From contig JAZTWE010000006.1 of assembly GCA_045635705.1 (NCBI GenBank), positions 1 through 47,534 of the forward strand: a stretch of DNA of 47,534 nt. The letters are read 5' to 3'. A model generated the notes under the pieces. The model was not told where the DNA came from. It was given only the letters and a program-made list of their open reading frames with translations, and ran no database searches. Position numbers and translations under genes: made by a program. This stretch comes from Candidatus Enterousia sp. (lineage in GTDB: Bacteria > Pseudomonadota > Alphaproteobacteria > Rs-D84). Positions 35,018-38,881 of this stretch are shown here, in pieces (positions within the stretch are counted from its first letter, which is position 1; each line of letters begins with the position of its first letter).

Positions 35018-36337
35018 TTATTGCAAATTCAACTGGCGATATTTCATACGAACGCTGTTTTCAATTTGCTTAATCGCGTTCAGGTAATCTGCGACAGTCG
35101 CGTTTTTGTTTGCAGACACCGCACTAAATATTTGTCCAGCCGATGTTGTGTTATCGCCTTCATAATACGTGGCCAATGTTGCCCGCGCACTAAGTTCTGC
35201 AAACGATGCATCATACAGGTTTGCCTGTCGCCCATAAACATCCCAAAAGTATTCAGGATTTGTTGAATCTTCGATGCGTTCACTGACGACCAGGCGTGGC
35301 GTGATTGAACCAGTAAATCCAACCGTCACGAACAGTGCGCTGATGCGTCCCGATGTCATATCCAGTGATTGGTTAATATTCAACAGTGCCAAGTCATCTT
35401 CTGTTTCCGTGGCCAGTCCCCCCAAGGTCAGATTAGTTGTCCACAGGTTTTCAACCGTAAACGCCGAAAACTTTCCCAAATCAGTCAGTGTTATTCCACC
35501 AATAACCTCCATATTTCTGGCGTCTGATGACAGCATCCCTGAAACTGTCGCGCTTTTTGTATAAAATGTTTTGTCCAGTGTTGTGCGGTTTTGGAATATC
35601 ACATCATTTGCGGCAATTGTTTGGCTGGACAATGTGTCGTCAAATTGCAGTGCGCGTGCATCCAAGAATTTTGCGTTTTTAATATCGTGCCCACCTAAAT
35701 TCAGTGCCGACATCATTGTTGCATCTGCTGCATCATCCGACGGCACGCGCCACAGGTACAGTGCATTATCACGACTGACGCTTGTTGTTTCCACGATACC
35801 TTCGGTCATGTTCAGTCCTAAATCCACCATATCTGTATGCCACGCGCCAAATGTTCCGTACGCATGATTGTTATCGATAAATCCCATCGAACCATCTGAC
35901 AGTGACACAATTTCGCGTGTGCGCAGTGGTGTGATATCCTGGGTTGACATAACAATTACACCTTGCAGTGTGGCCTGGCCATTTACATCGTTGGATTTCA
36001 GTACGCGCAGTTGATATTTTTCATCGCCCCCATCAATAATGGATTCTGCCAGTCCAAATTCCCCCAACTGTTGCAGTTCAACGCGCGTGATACTTTTTCC
36101 AACGGTGCTTAACATATTGTCGCGATTTGCAGCAATATATCGTTCCAGCGCGATTTGGATTTGTTCCATGTTTTTTGTTATCTGGATGTTTTCTGCGCGC
36201 TGTACAGCATTTTGTTGGTATTTGAATACAAACGGAATTATTGTTGTGGCCAACGCCACACTTAACAGCAATTCCACCAGCATACTGCCGCGTTGTGTGT
36301 TTTTATCAGCCAAGATGCGTTTTGCTTTTTTTATCAT
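35018..36337 (-). CDS. Large type-IV-pilin-like protein 3 (PilV/shufflon-N-like)
   Basis: MIKKAKRILADKNTQRG/SMLVELLLSVALATTIIPFVF has a class III signal with Glu+5. Internal motif LYLWRVPSDDAADATMMSALNLGGHDIKNA. The ATG at 36337 overlaps the upstream stop as ATGA. ORF open to 36370. Confidence 0.65.
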   Translation of the reverse strand: MIKKAKRILADKNTQRGSMLVELLLSVALATTIIPFVFKYQQNAVQRAENIQITKNMEQIQIALERYIAANRDNMLSTVGKSITRVELQQLGEFGLAESIIDGGDEKYQLRVLKSNDVNGQATLQGVIVMSTQDITPLRTREIVSLSDGSMGFIDNNHAYGTFGAWHTDMVDLGLNMTEGIVETTSVSRDNALYLWRVPSDDAADATMMSALNLGGHDIKNAKFLDARALQFDDTLSSQTIAANDVIFQNRTTLDKTFYTKSATVSGMLSSDARNMEVIGGITLTDLGKFSAFTVENLWTTNLTLGGLATETEDDLALLNINQSLDMTSGRISALFVTVGFTGSITPRLVVSERIEDSTNPEYFWDVYGRQANLYDASFAELSARATLATYYEGDNTTSAGQIFSAVSANKNATVADYLNAIKQIENSVRMKYRQLNLQ

Positions 36338-37545
36338 TGTATTGTTGGTATTGTTCCTGTGTATTGCCATCCTGATTTTACAATGTCGTCAAATTCAGAT
36401 GCGTTTGGTGCCGCCGGCACAGTTGCGCGTGATATTGTAAATTTTGAAAACTGTGGCGGCTTGGTTGATGGAAAAGACCAACTGCCAAATTTAATTGGCG
36501 ATGTTGTTGACATCAACAGTTCGCCCGACACTGTCAGTCCAAAGTTGTTATAGATTATCATTTCTTCGGTTGTGATAAACGGTGTCAGCACAGAATTCGT
36601 ATTGATTCCTGTAAAGCCACTAACTGTTTTGGCATAGTCTGATTTTACCACCATGTCTTTTGCGACATTAACCGTCCCCAGCACATTTGCCCGGTCAACA
36701 ATAACGCGCCCTGTGGTGGTATAATTACTGCCGTTCAGGTTGTCGGCATAAATGTTTCGAAATCCATTTGTGTCACCAGATACGCGCAGCGCATCGATAA
36801 ACACATCTTCGCCATTAACATTTGCGCCGGCCGAAAAATAGACATTTGTCGCGGCCAGTTCCGGGGTATTAACAAACATTGCGGTTGCGTTTTGTGCGCT
36901 GGCAGAATCTGCAATAGTACCGGCAATGTTATACACATTATAGTTTGCCATATCTAAATCGCGCTGCATAACATTCAAATCATCTTCGCCTGATGTTGCG
37001 CGATGCAGGTATTTTGATGTGTCCACCCCGGCAATATCACGCGATATACGATAAATCAAATCGCCCGGTAAAAAATCAGGCGCAGCAACCGCCCATGTGT
37101 TGCCGTACGCCACACCATCGTCGCCAACCACCGCCGCATCGCCGCCAATGTATTGCGCGATTTTAGATGTGCGCAGTTTTGATTCCTGGGATTCAAATGC
37201 CAGATATACATCCGTCACTGTTGCACCATTGACCTGATATTTATCAATAAAGCCAGCAACCGGCGTGTCTGATATTGTGTCCAGTTCTTCTTCGTCCAGT
37301 TTTATTTGCGCGATGTCTGGCCATTTGTCCTGATTCATTCGCACAAAGTTCAATACACCGTCGCGCAGTGCGACAATTTTATTTGCCATTGCGATGTCGT
37401 GAATTGTGTGATTGCTTTGTGCGATTTGTCGATAGACGAACGGTGTCGCCATTGCGATAATCGCCATGGCCAACAATACTTCCAGTACTGTTGCACCACG
37501 TGTTTCATCGGCAAAGATTTTACTTTTTAACACAGTCACTGCCAC
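36334..37545 (-). CDS. Large type-IV-pilin-like protein 2 (PilV/shufflon-N-like)
   Basis: (GTG)AVTVLKSKIFADETRG/ATVLEVLLAMAIIAMATPFVY has Glu+5. Internal motif KYLHRATSGEDDLNVMQRDLDMANYNVYNIA. It overlaps the upstream gene by 26 nt. Confidence 0.65.
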   Translation of the reverse strand: MAVTVLKSKIFADETRGATVLEVLLAMAIIAMATPFVYRQIAQSNHTIHDIAMANKIVALRDGVLNFVRMNQDKWPDIAQIKLDEEELDTISDTPVAGFIDKYQVNGATVTDVYLAFESQESKLRTSKIAQYIGGDAAVVGDDGVAYGNTWAVAAPDFLPGDLIYRISRDIAGVDTSKYLHRATSGEDDLNVMQRDLDMANYNVYNIAGTIADSASAQNATAMFVNTPELAATNVYFSAGANVNGEDVFIDALRVSGDTNGFRNIYADNLNGSNYTTTGRVIVDRANVLGTVNVAKDMVVKSDYAKTVSGFTGINTNSVLTPFITTEEMIIYNNFGLTVSGELLMSTTSPIKFGSWSFPSTKPPQFSKFTISRATVPAAPNASEFDDIVKSGWQYTGTIPTIQ

Positions 37546-38881
37546 CCGCCATCAGACATTGTTTCATATTTATTCTTTGTTCCAACCGTTGCCAGTAAAC
37601 ATACTGACAGATTATGTATTGTGACAGTGAATTTTTGTTGTAAACACCGTCCAGTTCTTTGATTATATCCCCGCATCCAATCGTGTCCCCAGAATCATCT
37701 GTGACATTTTTTATAATTTTGAATGCGTCGTTGTTAATTGTTGTCACATACGCATCTGGCAACAGTGATGTTCCCGCTGGGCGAATATCTAAAATAACCT
37801 GGCCGGTTTTGCCACTGTTCAGACCACTGGATGTCTGGTCGTATAGTGTGATATTTGATGTGTATAGGTATCCGACCTCTAACCCGCTTTTTGCGCTGAC
37901 TTCCAGGTCGTCATAATTCACATAAACATCTTGACCGCGGGTTGCATTTATGTATGACGACACATCCAGTCTTTCAACACTCAGGTTAATATTATCTGTC
38001 ACGACATTACCGCGAACATTCCACTTTGCCCCGCCCGTAAATCCGGTACGTCCCGCTGTCATTGAAAAGTCATAGACTGACGCATTGTTCGCAACCAAAT
38101 TTCCTGTGTCGCCAAATTTAGAAACCGTGCGGAAATTCGCATTATTTGCAAACAATGTCCCGCGTGTAAGTGACAGTGCTGATTCCCCTGTTTTGCTTTG
38201 GAAAACTGTTTTTTCGGCTGTCATATTTTCAATGGTGCTGCGTGTCTTGCGACCGGATTCCGTCCCCATTACGGACAATGTCCCAAATTGCGCAGATTCA
38301 AATTCGCCCCGTTGTGCAAACAGGTTCCCACCACGACGAAATGAATTTTCGCCCATATCCAGGTCGATTAAGAATCCACTGTTGTCTAAGTTTGGTTCGT
38401 TTCTGCGTACAATATCAGAATAGATATCTTGCAATTCAATACCGATTTGAATCGTGTCATCGGTTTGTGTGGCATAGAATCCAATTCTGCGTGCTAACTC
38501 TGCGCGTTCAATCCCGGACAGGTCGCCGCCACTCAGTTCAATATATGCCGACACCGCCATTGGCGTTTTGTGCAGCACCAACGACATATCTTGTCCCAGT
38601 GCGGTGCGTGGCACGAACCCCAACGGTAATCCGTACGGTTCCAGCATATCTGCGAATGCGTCACCTGCGACCACAGTTGTGTCAAACGCGATATTATTTG
38701 TATTTTCGCGAATAAAGATGCGTGCCGCCGTTTGTGCCAGTTCCACCTGGCGCGTTGTGGCGTGCATGCGTGCATCAGCGTTTTGCCCGGCCAATCGGTT
38801 TGCGATAAACGGAATAAAGGCAAAAATCAGGGTCAGTGCCAACAGTGCTTGCAATAAAAAATTTCCGTTTTGTTGGCGCAA
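37520..38881 (-). CDS. Large type-IV-pilin-like protein 1 (Gln at +5 instead of Glu)
   Basis: An in-frame TTG at 38881 is preceded by a strong SD GAGGAGGGAG (38891-38900). This gives MRQQNG/NFLLQALLALTLIFAFIPF, a 6-aa leader ending in Gly. There is a C-terminal 4-Cys region. The ORF track extends to 38986, but that extension has no RBS. Confidence 0.6.
   Translation of the reverse strand: MRQQNGNFLLQALLALTLIFAFIPFIANRLAGQNADARMHATTRQVELAQTAARIFIRENTNNIAFDTTVVAGDAFADMLEPYGLPLGFVPRTALGQDMSLVLHKTPMAVSAYIELSGGDLSGIERAELARRIGFYATQTDDTIQIGIELQDIYSDIVRRNEPNLDNSGFLIDLDMGENSFRRGGNLFAQRGEFESAQFGTLSVMGTESGRKTRSTIENMTAEKTVFQSKTGESALSLTRGTLFANNANFRTVSKFGDTGNLVANNASVYDFSMTAGRTGFTGGAKWNVRGNVVTDNINLSVERLDVSSYINATRGQDVYVNYDDLEVSAKSGLEVGYLYTSNITLYDQTSSGLNSGKTGQVILDIRPAGTSLLPDAYVTTINNDAFKIIKNVTDDSGDTIGCGDIIKELDGVYNKNSLSQYIICQYVYWQRLEQRINMKQCLMAGGSDCVKK

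What the first reader, a model, noticed from the sequence alone, without database searches (positions are those of the whole stretch)
35018..38881. Operon of three giant (about 400-450 aa) type-IV-pilin-like proteins with PilV/shufflon-N-like motifs and no assembly machinery nearby
**Class III signal peptides.** Three consecutive, overlapping minus-strand genes each begin with a short basic leader ending in Gly, then a hydrophobic helix with the diagnostic residue at +5.
- MRQQNG/NFLLQ... has Gln at +5.
- ...ETRG/ATVLE... has Glu at +5.
- ...TQRG/SMLVE... has Glu at +5.

**Unusual features.**
- The +1 residues (N, A, S) are not the Phe of type IVa pilins. This fits type IVb / R64 thin-pilus-like systems.
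- Pilins 2 and 3 contain Y-L-x-R...(N/T)-(V/M)-M-x-x-(D/A)-L-(D/N)-(M/L)-x-x-x-x-(V/I)-x-N motifs: KYLHRATSGEDDLNVMQRDLDMANYNVYNIA and LYLWRVPSDDAADATMMSALNLGGHDIKNA. I associate these with the PilV shufflon N-terminal constant region and phage tail fibres.
- The genes are translationally coupled: an ATGA overlap at 36334-36337 and a 26-nt overlap at 37520-37545.
- The first gene has the strongest SD in the window.
- The member lacking Glu+5 comes first, as expected for a tip or initiating minor pilin (GspK-like logic).

**Interpretation (inference).** R64 varies a single PilV tip adhesin by shufflon inversion. This locus instead hard-wires three full-length paralogs, possibly a multi-adhesin pilus tip complex. 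No secretin, platform protein, prepilin peptidase or PilB/PilT-type ATPase is in the window.
Basis: partly seen in the sequence, partly recalled or inferred. Interest (0 to 1): 0.75.

Follow-up and report, generated by a model that had tools for sequence, protein, structure and literature searches.

The report
Three hard-wired PilV-like giant pilins
A tiny-genome gut bacterium (Candidatus Enterousia group) carries a conserved operon of three large proteins that are distant relatives of the PilV pilus adhesin (annotated as the tip adhesin) of conjugative plasmids, plus a polarity-type zinc-finger protein and a nearby small pilin, yet no pilus-building genes are found nearby, so it may be a new way for a dependent bacterium to stick to other cells.

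Summary
Three overlapping minus-strand genes (A 37520-38881, B 36334-37539/37545, C 35018-36337) each start with a short basic leader ending in Gly. Glu (B, C) or Gln (A) sits at +5, followed by a hydrophobic helix.

Direct Pfam and NCBIfam scans give only sub-threshold N-terminal hits. Family profiles match true Shufflon_N proteins and annotated plasmid PilV adhesins (hhalign 92-99.5%, E 1e-7 to 4e-23).

- The transcription unit is A-B-C, a Zn-ribbon/TM/DUF3426 protein with ZitP's domain set, a 151-aa secreted protein and RluD.
- A 152-aa pilin-like gene (30953-31411) is a constant neighbour.

The block occurs in essentially all 83 species-level loci examined, from Ca. Enterousia and related unclassified MAGs (order Rs-D84, genomes under about 1 Mb). 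It also occurs in distant "Rickettsiales" MAGs. It has no shufflon, and no pilus assembly genes lie within 10 kb.

Best reading: processed minor-pilin-like subunits form a three-part adhesive tip on a filament whose machinery lies elsewhere or is unrecognised. Whether a filament exists is untested. This is a new variant of a known kind.

The parts
37520..38881 (-). Gene A, 453 aa. PilV-superfamily pilin-like protein: leader MRQQNG, then NFLLQALLALTLIFAFIPF. Gln at +5; conserved C-terminal Cys-containing domain.
   Evidence: - ORF and start.
- 950 homologues.
- hhalign against Shufflon_N proteins: 97.3%, E 2e-11. Against annotated PilV proteins: 92%, E 7e-7.
- AF2: helix 3-59 plus a beta-sheet domain to about residue 150 at pLDDT about 80; residues 152-380 unmodelled.
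- Gln at +5 is invariant in the family and present in distant L096 and L097.
36334..37545 (-). Gene B, 401-403 aa (start GTG 37539 or 37545). PilV-superfamily pilin-like protein: ...ETRG|ATVLEVLLAMAIIAMATPFVY. Carries the YLHRATSGEDDLNVMQRDLDMANYNVYNI motif.
   Evidence: - ORF and family.
- The exhaustive profile search retrieves true Shufflon_N proteins.
- hhalign: 99.5%, E 3e-22; 94%, E 1e-7 against annotated PilV.
- AF2: residues 14-170 at pLDDT about 80, with helix 18-72 plus a sheet.
- Foldseek top hit is a chain of the Xcp T2SS pseudopilus model: probability 0.94, TMt 0.53, E 0.13.
35018..36337 (-). Gene C, 439 aa (longest ORF reaches 36370). PilV-superfamily pilin-like protein: ...TQRG|SMLVELLLSVALATTIIPFVF. 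Carries the YLWRVPSDDAADATMMSALNLGGHDIKNA motif.
   Evidence: - ORF and family.
- hhalign: 99.5%, E 4e-23; 97.5%, E 5e-12 against the annotated-PilV profile; 93%, E 3e-7 against one PilV sequence.
- Paralogue of B: 97.5%, E 6e-12.
- ATGA overlap with B's stop codon.
34473..34997 (-). Gene D, 174 aa. N-terminal CxxC...CxxC zinc ribbon, one transmembrane helix, and a periplasmic DUF3426-like domain. This is ZitP's domain set.
   Evidence: - Pfam Zn_ribbon_4 E 1.4e-5 and DUF3426 E 0.009, both below the curated cut-offs.
- Across the family, 38 of 39 members match Zn_ribbon_4 and 25 of 39 match DUF3426, best E 5e-6.
- Present in 83 loci and in distant L096 and L097.
- ZitP architecture and role: PMC5182063.
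34021..34476 (-). Gene E, 151 aa. Secreted protein (signal peptide MKKFIALMLFVCTSAMA) with a conserved SxSxDWEAVxGxxxSEY motif. No known family.
   Evidence: - ATGA overlap with D's stop codon.
- Present in 83 loci and conserved in L096 and L097.
- No Pfam, NCBIfam or PHROGs match.
33055..34011 (-). RluD-type pseudouridine synthase. Last gene of the transcription unit; probably a co-transcribed housekeeping passenger.
   Evidence: - Pfam PseudoU_synth_2 E 3e-28.
- Follows E in 82 loci and in L096 and L097.
33032..33055 (-). Terminator-like hairpin with a T-run, overlapping the RluD stop codon (33055-33057). Likely end of the A-B-C-D-E-RluD unit.
   Evidence: Best terminator-like site in the region: 10 pairs, followed by ATTTATT.
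38882..38905 (-). Ribosome-binding region of gene A (AGAGGAGGGAGG, then 8 nt, then TTG).
   Evidence: -.
- A possible SD-sequestering hairpin folds no better than shuffled sequence, z -0.77.
30953..31411 (-). Gene F, 152 aa. Small type-IV-pilin-like protein (MKAESG|RSLIEVIGVLAVTGLMTVGAMGAY...) with two conserved C-terminal Cys. Candidate major pilin or pseudopilin for the system.
   Evidence: - Found by the motif scan.
- The family has invariant G6, E11, C112 and C139.
- Seven of eight PDB profile hits are type IV pilins, all weak, best E 0.0015.
- 14 of 21 members weakly match GspH and 8 of 21 match ComGE.
- Present within 1.9-3.6 kb of the triplet in 72 of 83 loci.
- Comparison with one PilS pilin is inconclusive.

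Best explanation
**What it is (shown).** A, B and C are three paralogous, very large minor-pilin-like proteins of the PilV (Shufflon_N) superfamily. Each has a prepilin-type (class III) N-terminus, a long N-terminal helix and a pilin-like head domain. Next comes the conserved YLxR...NxM...LxM region shared with PilV, then a family-specific, beta-rich C-terminal half of about 200 residues.

**How it probably works (inferred).**
- A prepilin peptidase cleaves each protein after the conserved Gly.
- The three proteins pack through their hydrophobic N-terminal helices into a hetero-oligomeric cap on a short filament or pseudopilus. Its shaft may be built from the neighbouring 152-aa pilin F.
- A, which has Gln instead of Glu at +5, would be the tip-most or initiating subunit, as GspK is in type II secretion (my knowledge).
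- The three different C-terminal domains would act as fixed adhesins. In conjugative plasmids, PilV instead swaps one C-terminus by DNA inversion.
- The co-transcribed Zn-ribbon/TM/DUF3426 protein (ZitP's domain set) and the secreted protein E would position or stabilise the structure in the envelope, perhaps at a cell pole.

**Likely purpose (inferred).** In a bacterium with a genome of under about 1 Mb that appears to depend on other cells, the likely use is attachment to a partner or host surface.

**What is missing.** The assembly ATPase, platform protein, peptidase and any secretin must be encoded elsewhere in the genome, or be too divergent to recognise.
For: **Prepilin-type N-termini**
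- They are conserved in all three families and across a superfamily with under 20% identity.
- Some distant members carry the canonical KGFTLLE form and pass Pfam N_methyl.

**Homology to PilV**
- The B profile retrieves Pfam-validated Shufflon_N proteins at library-wide E 5e-7 to 5e-4.
- One of them, P0464, matches pilV genes in 2,789 plasmid records.
- hhalign of A, B and C against these proteins gives E 2e-11 to 4e-23.
- Against an independent profile of five annotated PilV proteins it gives E 7e-7 to 5e-12.

**Structure**
- AF2 models show a 55-60-residue N-terminal helix plus a beta-sheet head at pLDDT about 80.
- B's top Foldseek hit is a T2SS pseudopilus subunit.

**Function of the known relative**
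- PilV is a minor pilin whose C-terminus acts as an adhesin (PMC9045228).

**Operon and conservation**
- The genes are translationally coupled.
- The A-B-C-D-E-RluD block is present in essentially all 83 loci. It is also present in distant 'Rickettsiales' MAGs.
- The triplet alone occurs in still more distant lineages.

**Partners**
- D has ZitP's domain set. ZitP's DUF3426 domain is needed for Tad/Cpa pilus biogenesis in Caulobacter (PMC5182063).
- A small pilin-like gene F with invariant Gly(-1), Glu(+5) and a Cys pair is a constant neighbour.

**Lifestyle**
- The clade has genomes of under about 1 Mb and is proposed to live off other cells (PMC12306168).
Against: - No prepilin peptidase, pilus ATPase, platform protein or secretin was found among the window ORFs of at least 150 aa that were scanned. 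None was found among the flank families screened within 10 kb of the triplet in 83 loci. None lies near it in five distant loci.
- The comparative paper on the clade reports type IV pili only for a different lineage.
- Direct Pfam and NCBIfam scans give only sub-threshold N-terminal hits. Shufflon_N does not match A, B or C directly.
- The structural match to a pseudopilin is weak (E 0.13). A has no structural match at all.
- The C-terminal halves are not modelled with any confidence.
- Processing, surface exposure and adhesion are all untested.
- The locus sits among housekeeping genes and ends with RluD. That would also fit a constitutive envelope component rather than an appendage.
Confidence: 0.55

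Rival explanations
1. **Pilin-derived envelope scaffold, no filament.** A, B and C keep a pilin-type N-terminal helix only as an uncleaved membrane anchor. They sit in the inner membrane with their large domains in the periplasm. Together with the ZitP-domain protein D and protein E, they form a fixed, possibly polar, envelope complex.
For: - No assembly genes lie near the locus in about 88 loci.
- Type IV pili are not reported for Rs-D84.
- The locus is embedded in core housekeeping and envelope genes and co-transcribed with RluD.
- D has the domain set of a polarity organiser that also exists in pilus-less Rickettsia (PMC5182065 abstract).
Against: - A charged Glu inside a membrane helix, the Gly before it and a Pro at +18 are near-invariant over a superfamily with under 20% identity. 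That is hard to explain for a mere anchor. It is what peptidase recognition and filament packing require (my knowledge of type IV pilins).
- A small pilin-like gene with a D-region-like Cys pair is a constant neighbour.
Confidence: 0.22
2. **Adhesins serving the VirB-type type IV secretion system.** PilV-bearing thin pili stabilise mating pairs for conjugative T4SSs. Here the three PilV-like proteins would provide target-cell attachment for the chromosomal VirB/VirD4 system of these bacteria. They might be assembled by an unconventional route.
For: - A VirB11/TrbB-like ATPase is in the window, and VirD4 lies near the locus in relatives.
- In canonical plasmids the PilV pilus cluster sits next to a Trb/VirB-type T4SS.
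- PilV's known role is recipient-cell recognition for conjugation.
Against: - The T4SS genes are not consistently linked to the locus.
- Canonical PilV still needs its own type IVb machinery, which is present in those plasmids and was not found here.
- No known T4SS handles prepilin-type subunits (my knowledge).
Confidence: 0.1
3. **Periplasmic pseudopilus for secretion or uptake.** A, B and C act like the GspI/J/K tip of a type II secretion or competence-type pseudopilus rather than as surface adhesins. F would be the GspG/GspH-like shaft subunit.
For: - Weak HMM hits of B to GspI and of C to GspK, and of F-family members to GspH and ComGE.
- B's top structural hit is an Xcp pseudopilus chain.
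- One subunit lacks Glu at +5, as GspK does (the GspK comparison is my knowledge).
Against: - All these hits are far below the family cut-offs.
- The significant homology is to PilV adhesins, not to Gsp proteins.
- At 400-450 aa with large C-terminal domains, the proteins are much bigger than GspI or GspJ.
- No secretin, GspE or GspF was seen.
Confidence: 0.08

Closest known systems
PilV, the minor pilin and adhesin of the type IVb thin pilus of IncI1/IncI2 plasmids (R64, TP114), and PilV2 of PAPI-1-type elements (Pfam PF04917 Shufflon_N)
   Same: - Prepilin-type N-terminus.
- Similar size (400-470 aa).
- Homologous N-terminal helix, head domain and the YLxR...NxM...DLxM...N core.
- A beta-rich region follows the core, then a distinct C-terminal end. 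In PilV that end is the adhesin.
   Different: - The Pfam Shufflon_N model does not detect A, B or C directly, and tblastn finds no plasmid match.
- There are three fixed tandem paralogues instead of one gene with invertible 3' cassettes. There is no Rci recombinase and no sfx-type repeats.
- The locus is chromosomal, in a core housekeeping region of a reduced genome, not on a conjugative element.
- None of the adjacent pilus genes seen in canonical loci is present: secretin PilN, PilO/P, ATPases, platform protein, major pilin PilS, peptidase (versus 54, 57).
- The first paralogue has Gln at +5.
Large tip-located type IVb minor pilins CofB (ETEC CFA/III) and TcpB (Vibrio cholerae)
   Same: (My knowledge; CofB at the pilus tip is also cited in PMC9045228.) These are large minor pilins with a pilin-like N-terminal domain followed by beta-rich C-terminal domains. 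CofB forms a trimer that caps and initiates the pilus. A hetero-trimer of A, B and C would be the analogous arrangement.
   Different: - No sequence or structural match was found here.
- CofB and TcpB are single genes inside complete pilus operons and form homo-oligomers.
GspI/GspJ/GspK (XcpV/W/X) tip complex of the type II secretion pseudopilus, and the FimU-PilVWX minor pilins of type IVa pili
   Same: - Several minor pilins are encoded together and translationally coupled.
- One member lacks Glu at +5.
- B gives a weak GspI HMM hit (E 6e-4), and its top Foldseek hit is a pseudopilus chain.
   Different: - All scores are far below the family cut-offs.
- A, B and C are three to four times larger.
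- No Gsp or Pil machinery lies next to them.
ZitP of Caulobacter crescentus (for gene D)
   Same: - Domain set: N-terminal zinc ribbon, one transmembrane helix, periplasmic DUF3426 (PMC5182063).
- An alphaproteobacterial protein.
- ZitP's DUF3426 domain is required for Tad/Cpa pilus biogenesis.
   Different: - D is 174 aa against 311 aa for ZitP.
- All Pfam scores for the window protein are below the curated cut-offs.
- Orthology, PopZ binding and any CpaM partner were not tested.
- The ZitP passages read here do not mention linkage to pilin genes.

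Membership tests
Type IV pilin / pseudopilin superfamily (class III signal peptide) | Short, positively charged leader ending in Gly at -1 | tested here: met
   - A MRQQNG, B ...ETRG, C ...TQRG, F MKAESG.
- Gly is invariant in each family.
- It is conserved in at least 90% of the superfamily alignment.
Type IV pilin / pseudopilin superfamily (class III signal peptide) | Glu at +5 of the mature protein | tested here: met
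   - Met for B, C and F (invariant).
- 82 of 89 diverged representatives have Glu or Asp there.
- Not met for A, which has an invariant Gln. Known tip minor pilins such as GspK also lack the Glu (my knowledge).
Type IV pilin / pseudopilin superfamily (class III signal peptide) | About 20 hydrophobic residues forming the start of a long (about 50-residue) N-terminal helix packed on a beta-sheet head domain | tested here: met
   - AF2 models: B has helix 18-72 plus strands to residue 168; A has helix 3-59 plus strands to residue 147. Both are at pLDDT about 80.
- The match to a solved pseudopilin is weak (E 0.13).
- No model was made for C or F.
Type IV pilin / pseudopilin superfamily (class III signal peptide) | Recognised by curated N-terminal models (Pfam N_methyl PF07963, TIGR02532) | tested here: not met
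   - B matches N_methyl at E 0.28, 11.3 bits, against a cut-off of 21.2. A and C give no hit.
- Of the distant superfamily members, P0502 passes the cut-off at 22.5 bits and P0460 falls just short at 16.5 bits.
Type IV pilin / pseudopilin superfamily (class III signal peptide) | Cleavage by an A24 prepilin peptidase, and an assembly ATPase plus platform protein encoded in the genome | not testable with these tools
   - None was found in the window, nor within 10 kb in 83 loci.
- The rest of the genome could not be read.
- The literature gives only indirect evidence of absence.
PilV / Shufflon_N (Pfam PF04917) | Match to the Pfam Shufflon_N model above its gathering score | tested here: not met
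   - A, B and C give no hit, even at E up to 1.
- The first gene of the distant triplet in L089 has a weak Shufflon_N hit on record.
PilV / Shufflon_N (Pfam PF04917) | Homology to the constant region, including the YLYR..PG.P.LN.M.T.(I/L)DM..N.(I/L)NN core | tested here: met
   - hhalign against six Pfam-validated Shufflon_N proteins: B E 3e-22, C E 4e-23, A E 2e-11.
- hhalign against five annotated plasmid PilV proteins: B E 1e-7, C E 5e-12, A E 7e-7.
- The motif is visible in B and C and degenerate in A.
PilV / Shufflon_N (Pfam PF04917) | Shufflon: invertible 3' cassettes flanked by sfx repeats, plus an Rci recombinase | tested here: not met
   - Only short, imperfect inverted repeats occur in 33000-39500.
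- No integrase lies next to the locus. Canonical loci have one.
PilV / Shufflon_N (Pfam PF04917) | Encoded within a type IVb pilus cluster (pilL-pilV) on a conjugative element | tested here: not met
   - The neighbours are chromosomal housekeeping genes in all 83 loci.
- Canonical clusters are shown.
T2SS minor pseudopilins GspI / GspK | Match to the NCBIfam equivalog models above cut-off | tested here: not met
   - B against GspI: 20.2 bits, cut-off 44.
- C against GspK: 15.4 bits, cut-off 130.
- Both matches cover the N-terminal helix only.
ZitP-type polarity protein (gene D) | Zinc ribbon, single TM helix and periplasmic DUF3426 | tested here: inconclusive
   - All three parts are present, but below Pfam's cut-offs in the window protein.
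- 38 of 39 family members match Zn_ribbon_4 and 25 of 39 match DUF3426 at E up to 0.05.
- Orthology to ZitP and PopZ binding were not tested.

The most novel reading that the evidence does not exclude
Rs-D84 / Enterousia genomes truly lack any conventional type IV filament machinery and prepilin peptidase. The conserved module (three PilV-like giants, the ZitP-domain protein, protein E and the small pilin F) would then be assembled or deployed by an unrecognised route. One possibility is an apparatus organised by the ZitP-domain protein, or one linked to the VirB-type T4SS. The result would be a new kind of attachment organelle used by reduced-genome Alphaproteobacteria to parasitise other cells.
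Probability: 0.15. Interest if true: 0.85.

Novelty: new variant of a known kind. Interest (0 to 1): 0.62.

Why it matters
- **Extends the PilV family.** In the systems examined here and in the papers read, PilV-type adhesins are accessory parts of conjugative plasmids and islands, and IncI plasmids diversify them by DNA inversion. This locus shows a deep chromosomal branch of the same superfamily. It is fixed as three paralogues and has been kept in genomes that have shed most of their metabolism.
- **Points to an important function.** The block occurs in essentially every Ca. Enterousia / Rs-D84-type locus examined, and at least 190 species-level genomes carry a B homologue. It takes up about 4 kb of genomes of roughly 0.9 Mb. 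That suggests a key function, plausibly the cell-to-cell attachment on which the proposed symbiotic or parasitic lifestyle depends.
- **Gives names to unnamed proteins.** Roughly 900-1,000 database proteins per family, of which every one that carries a source name is labelled 'hypothetical', now have a testable identity.
- **Links pilins to a polarity factor.** The operon ties a protein with ZitP's domain set directly to pilin-like genes.
- **Opens a question about assembly.** If the genomes prove to lack pilus machinery, how pilin-type proteins are assembled there becomes a real problem.

Tried and rejected
- **Direct family scans.** Pfam and NCBIfam scans of A, B and C gave only sub-threshold N-terminal hits.
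- **PDB sequence searches.** Profile searches for A, B and C found nothing beyond a weak Geobacter pilin helix match for C.
- **Foldseek.** The A model found nothing. The B model found only a weak pseudopilin hit. The C-terminal halves were modelled at pLDDT below 50, so no fold claim is made for them.
- **tblastn.** B against 72,556 plasmids gave no match.
- **Phage tail fibre idea.** PHROGs gave no tail-fibre hit.
- **Shufflon.** No credible inverted-repeat set was found.
- **The ATPase as a pilus motor.** Rejected: it is closest to TrbB/VirB11 (63 bits). It scores 48 bits against the PilQ-type ATPase and 27 bits against the PilT2-type.
- **F versus PilS.** Comparison with one PilS major pilin was inconclusive. 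F is not related to C beyond the motif.
- **SD-sequestering hairpin at gene A.** It folds no better than shuffled sequence.
- **Polytopic and Walker-motif proteins in the flanks of 83 loci.** Ten were scanned. Three were identified: LptF/G, a Na/H exchanger and an SMC-like ATPase. Seven had no family. None was pilus machinery.
- **Genome-wide search for a prepilin peptidase or platform protein in an Enterousia MAG.** Not possible with the available tools.
- **Supplements of the clade paper.** Not held.

Full report
**1. What is at the coordinates**

- Three minus-strand ORFs fill 35018-38986.
- Gene A starts at TTG 38881, behind AGAGGAGGGAGG. This matches the deposited 453-aa protein.
- Gene B starts at GTG 37539 or 37545. 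Gene C starts at ATG 36337; the longest ORF reaches 36370, but homologues and the deposited 439-aa call favour 36337.
- A and B overlap by 20-26 nt. B and C share an ATGA.
- A six-frame scan of the whole window for G-x4-(E/Q) followed by an uncharged hydrophobic 15-mer gives six matches. Four are A, B, C and one further real gene. Two are spurious.

**2. Organism and setting**

- The window is a whole 47.5-kb contig of an uncultured alphaproteobacterium. It carries LpxI, DnaX with DUF3646, MreB, IleRS, MetRS, MnmG, LolCDE-like proteins, Skp and an OmpA-like lipoprotein.
- Homologues of A, B and C number about 900-1,000 each. Every one that carries a name is a 'hypothetical protein' from gut 'Alphaproteobacteria bacterium' MAGs.
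- A scan of species-representative genomes found a B relative in 190 stretches. Of the 80 kept, many are named Candidatus Enterousia and the rest are unclassified Alphaproteobacteria or Proteobacteria MAGs.
- GTDB places this genus in order Rs-D84. Its genomes are 0.75-1.0 Mb and lack flagella, respiration and most biosynthesis. The bacteria are proposed to obtain metabolites from other cells. The same paper reports type IV pili only for an unrelated lineage (PMC12306168).

**3. The N-terminal signal is conserved far beyond chance**

- Within each family the Gly, the Glu (Gln in A) and a downstream Pro-Phe are invariant or nearly so.
- An exhaustive HMM search with the B profile against 1.84 billion representative proteins found only 148 hits.
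- Of the 89 full-length hits, 82 keep Gly(-1), Glu/Asp(+5) and a hydrophobic stretch. At least four of the seven exceptions are truncated gene calls.
- In their joint alignment (mean column identity 8%), the only columns conserved in at least 90% of sequences are that Gly, that Glu, a Pro at +18, one Gly, and a Leu and a Met of the motif described in section 5.
- Some distant members carry the textbook KGFTLLE form. P0502 passes Pfam N_methyl and P0460 falls just short.

**4. The three proteins are paralogues**

- Profile-profile comparison gives B~C 97.5% (E 6e-12, 260 columns), C~A 93% (E 4e-7) and B~A 72%.

**5. They belong to the PilV / Shufflon_N superfamily**

- Direct Pfam and NCBIfam scans of A, B and C give only sub-threshold N-terminal hits: N_methyl, GspI, GspK, ComGG.
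- Eight of the distant proteins retrieved by the B profile match Pfam Shufflon_N. Six that I re-scanned pass its curated cut-off, best E 2.5e-35.
- One of these, P0464, matches genes in 2,789 plasmid records. Most of those listed are annotated 'pilus tip adhesin PilV'.
- The core Shufflon_N motif YLYRxxVPGxPELNxMxTDLDMNxNDINNV lines up with B (YLHRATSGEDDLNVMQRDLDMANYNVYNI) and C (YLWRVPSDDAADATMMSALNLGGHDIKNA).
- hhalign against those six proteins gives B 99.5% (E 3e-22), C 99.5% (E 4e-23) and A 97.3% (E 2e-11). Each alignment covers the helix, the head domain and the motif.
- Those six were picked by the B profile, so I built an independent profile from five annotated plasmid PilV proteins. 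The result holds: B 94% (E 1e-7), C 97.5% (E 5e-12), A 92% (E 7e-7).
- C alone matches a single PilV sequence at E 3e-7.
Plain tblastn of B and Pfam's own Shufflon_N model both miss it. Only the profile built from the B family finds it.

**6. Structure**

- AF2 models, built on family alignments, are confident only in parts.
- B residues 14-170 have pLDDT about 80: a helix 18-72 followed by a small alpha/beta domain.
- A residues 1-150 show the same topology, and a C-terminal helical piece (380-450) is also confident.
- About 200-230 residues in each model are below pLDDT 50: the whole C-terminal half of B and the middle of A. Nothing is claimed for them.
- B's top Foldseek hit in the PDB is a 116-residue chain of the XcpGHIJK pseudopilus model (probability 0.94, TMt 0.53, E 0.13). 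It is the only hit of that kind. A has no meaningful hit.
- No Shufflon_N protein has a solved structure. The Shufflon_N profile matches only the N-terminal helix of true pilins.

**7. The unit is bigger than the finding**

- I clustered all ORFs from 83 loci: 80 species representatives and 3 copies of one relative's locus. The window was added as an 84th sequence. There are three triplet genes per locus.
- Other genes appear at these frequencies:
  - a 175-aa protein (83 members)
  - a 153-aa protein (83 members)
  - RluD (82)
  - DnaX (78)
  - a 152-aa protein (72)
  - an OmpA-like lipoprotein (71 loci)
  - a small divergent protein (70)
  - a roughly 1,050-aa Cys-rich protein (58)
- In the window, D (34473-34997) follows C after 17 nt. 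E (34021-34476) overlaps D by ATGA. RluD follows 9 nt later, and the best terminator-like hairpin of the region sits at its end.
- D is a zinc ribbon plus one TM helix plus DUF3426. Of 39 family members, 38 match the ribbon and 25 match DUF3426.
- That is the domain set of ZitP, the Caulobacter polarity factor whose DUF3426 domain is required for Tad/Cpa pilus biogenesis (PMC5182063).
- E is a secreted protein with no known family.
- The same six-gene order recurs in distant 'Rickettsiales bacterium' termite-gut MAGs, where B-type identity is only about 20-35%.
- The triplet alone recurs in still more distant Alphaproteobacteria MAGs.
- Gln at +5 of the first gene is kept in the lineages that also keep D and E.

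**8. A fourth pilin-like gene**

- ORF 30953-31411 (F, 152 aa) begins MKAESG|RSLIEVIGVLAVTGLMTVGAMGAY.
- In 70 distinct homologues, Gly6, Glu11 and two C-terminal Cys are invariant.
- Seven of eight PDB hits of its profile are type IV pilins, all weak, best E 0.0015.
- 14 of 21 members weakly match GspH and 8 of 21 match ComGE.
- F is translationally coupled to DnaX and the Pal-like lipoprotein.
- It lies 1.9-3.6 kb from the triplet in 72 loci. In 71 of them it is upstream on the opposite strand. Only in this window is it downstream on the same strand.
- It is the size of a major pilin or pseudopilin. Its relation to PilS is unresolved.

**9. What is absent**

- There is no shufflon and no recombinase next to the locus.
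- No secretin, PilO/P, platform protein, peptidase or pilus ATPase was found in the window. None was found in the flanks of the 83 loci or in the distant loci.
- Canonical PilV loci have all of these side by side.
- The one T2SSE-superfamily ATPase in the window (24156-25151) is VirB11/TrbB-like. Relatives carry VirD4. It therefore most likely belongs to a scattered VirB-type T4SS.
- I could not read the rest of any genome, so machinery elsewhere is neither shown nor excluded.

**10. Interpretation**

- Shown:
  - A, B and C have prepilin-type N-termini.
  - They are paralogues of one another.
  - They are homologous to PilV.
  - The operon structure and its conservation are established.
  - D has ZitP's domain set.
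  - A neighbouring small pilin-like gene (F) exists.
- Inferred: cleavage by a peptidase; assembly of A, B and C into a hetero-oligomeric tip with A outermost; adhesin function of the three C-termini; F as the shaft subunit; D and E as positioning factors; attachment to partner cells as the purpose.
- The strongest argument for a real filament-type assembly is the near-invariance of Gly(-1), Glu(+5) and Pro(+18) across a very old superfamily. The strongest argument against is the complete lack of nearby machinery in a clade not reported to have pili.
- I put the filament-tip reading at about 0.55. A non-filament envelope scaffold gets about 0.22. The rest goes to T4SS-linked or secretion-type variants.

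**11. Novelty**

- No paper in the searchable library describes these proteins.
- They are best classed as a new variant of a known kind: a chromosomal, triplicated, non-shufflon branch of the PilV superfamily, tied to a protein with ZitP's domain set, in reduced-genome Alphaproteobacteria.

Noticed in passing
window 30953-31411 (-): A 152-aa type-IV-pilin-like gene (MKAESG|RSLIEV...) with invariant Gly(-1), Glu(+5) and two C-terminal Cys. It is coupled to DnaX and a Pal-like lipoprotein and is a constant neighbour of the triplet.
   Followed up: yes
window 24156-25151 (-); L001-L003 about 3100-5400: A lone VirB11/TrbB-like ATPase sits in the window, and a lone VirD4 coupling protein lies near the locus in relatives. 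This suggests a scattered VirB-type type IV secretion system, as in Rickettsiales.
   Followed up: partly
window 29531-32976 compared with loci L004-L083: In this window the DnaX-F-Pal-Skp block lies downstream of the operon on the same strand. In 71 of 72 other loci it lies upstream on the opposite strand. This points to a local inversion or rearrangement in this genome.
   Followed up: partly
window 370-1401 (+), 14640-15725 (+), 26151-27098 (-): Three paralogous Cys-rich secreted proteins share near-identical signal peptides (MP(K/N)(I/L)IVGLG...). None has a family match.
   Followed up: no
window 39435-42593 (+): A 1,052-aa Cys-rich secreted protein with a poly-Thr run and Gly-rich hydrophobic C-terminal segments. 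It neighbours the operon in 58 of 83 loci and has no family match.
   Followed up: partly
window 39033-39338 (+): A small basic protein is transcribed divergently from gene A in 70 of 83 loci. All 36 members scanned match DUF4167.
   Followed up: partly
window 38891-38914 (-): The Shine-Dalgarno sequence of gene A can pair with an upstream pyrimidine run to form a hairpin. The fold is no more stable than shuffled sequence (z -0.77), so no regulatory claim is made.
   Followed up: yes
L084 10001-12814 (P0472), and P0468, P0473, P0478, P0485 and others: Other Alphaproteobacteria MAGs carry single-gene relatives of 900-1,200 aa with the same prepilin-type N-terminus. The one whose context was read (P0472 in L084) sits among housekeeping genes with no pilus machinery nearby.
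   Followed up: partly
window 45213-46172 (+) and 46190-47050 (+): Two adjacent paralogous genes encode probable outer-membrane proteins; one gives a weak CarO-like porin hit. The family recurs in 24 related loci.
   Followed up: no
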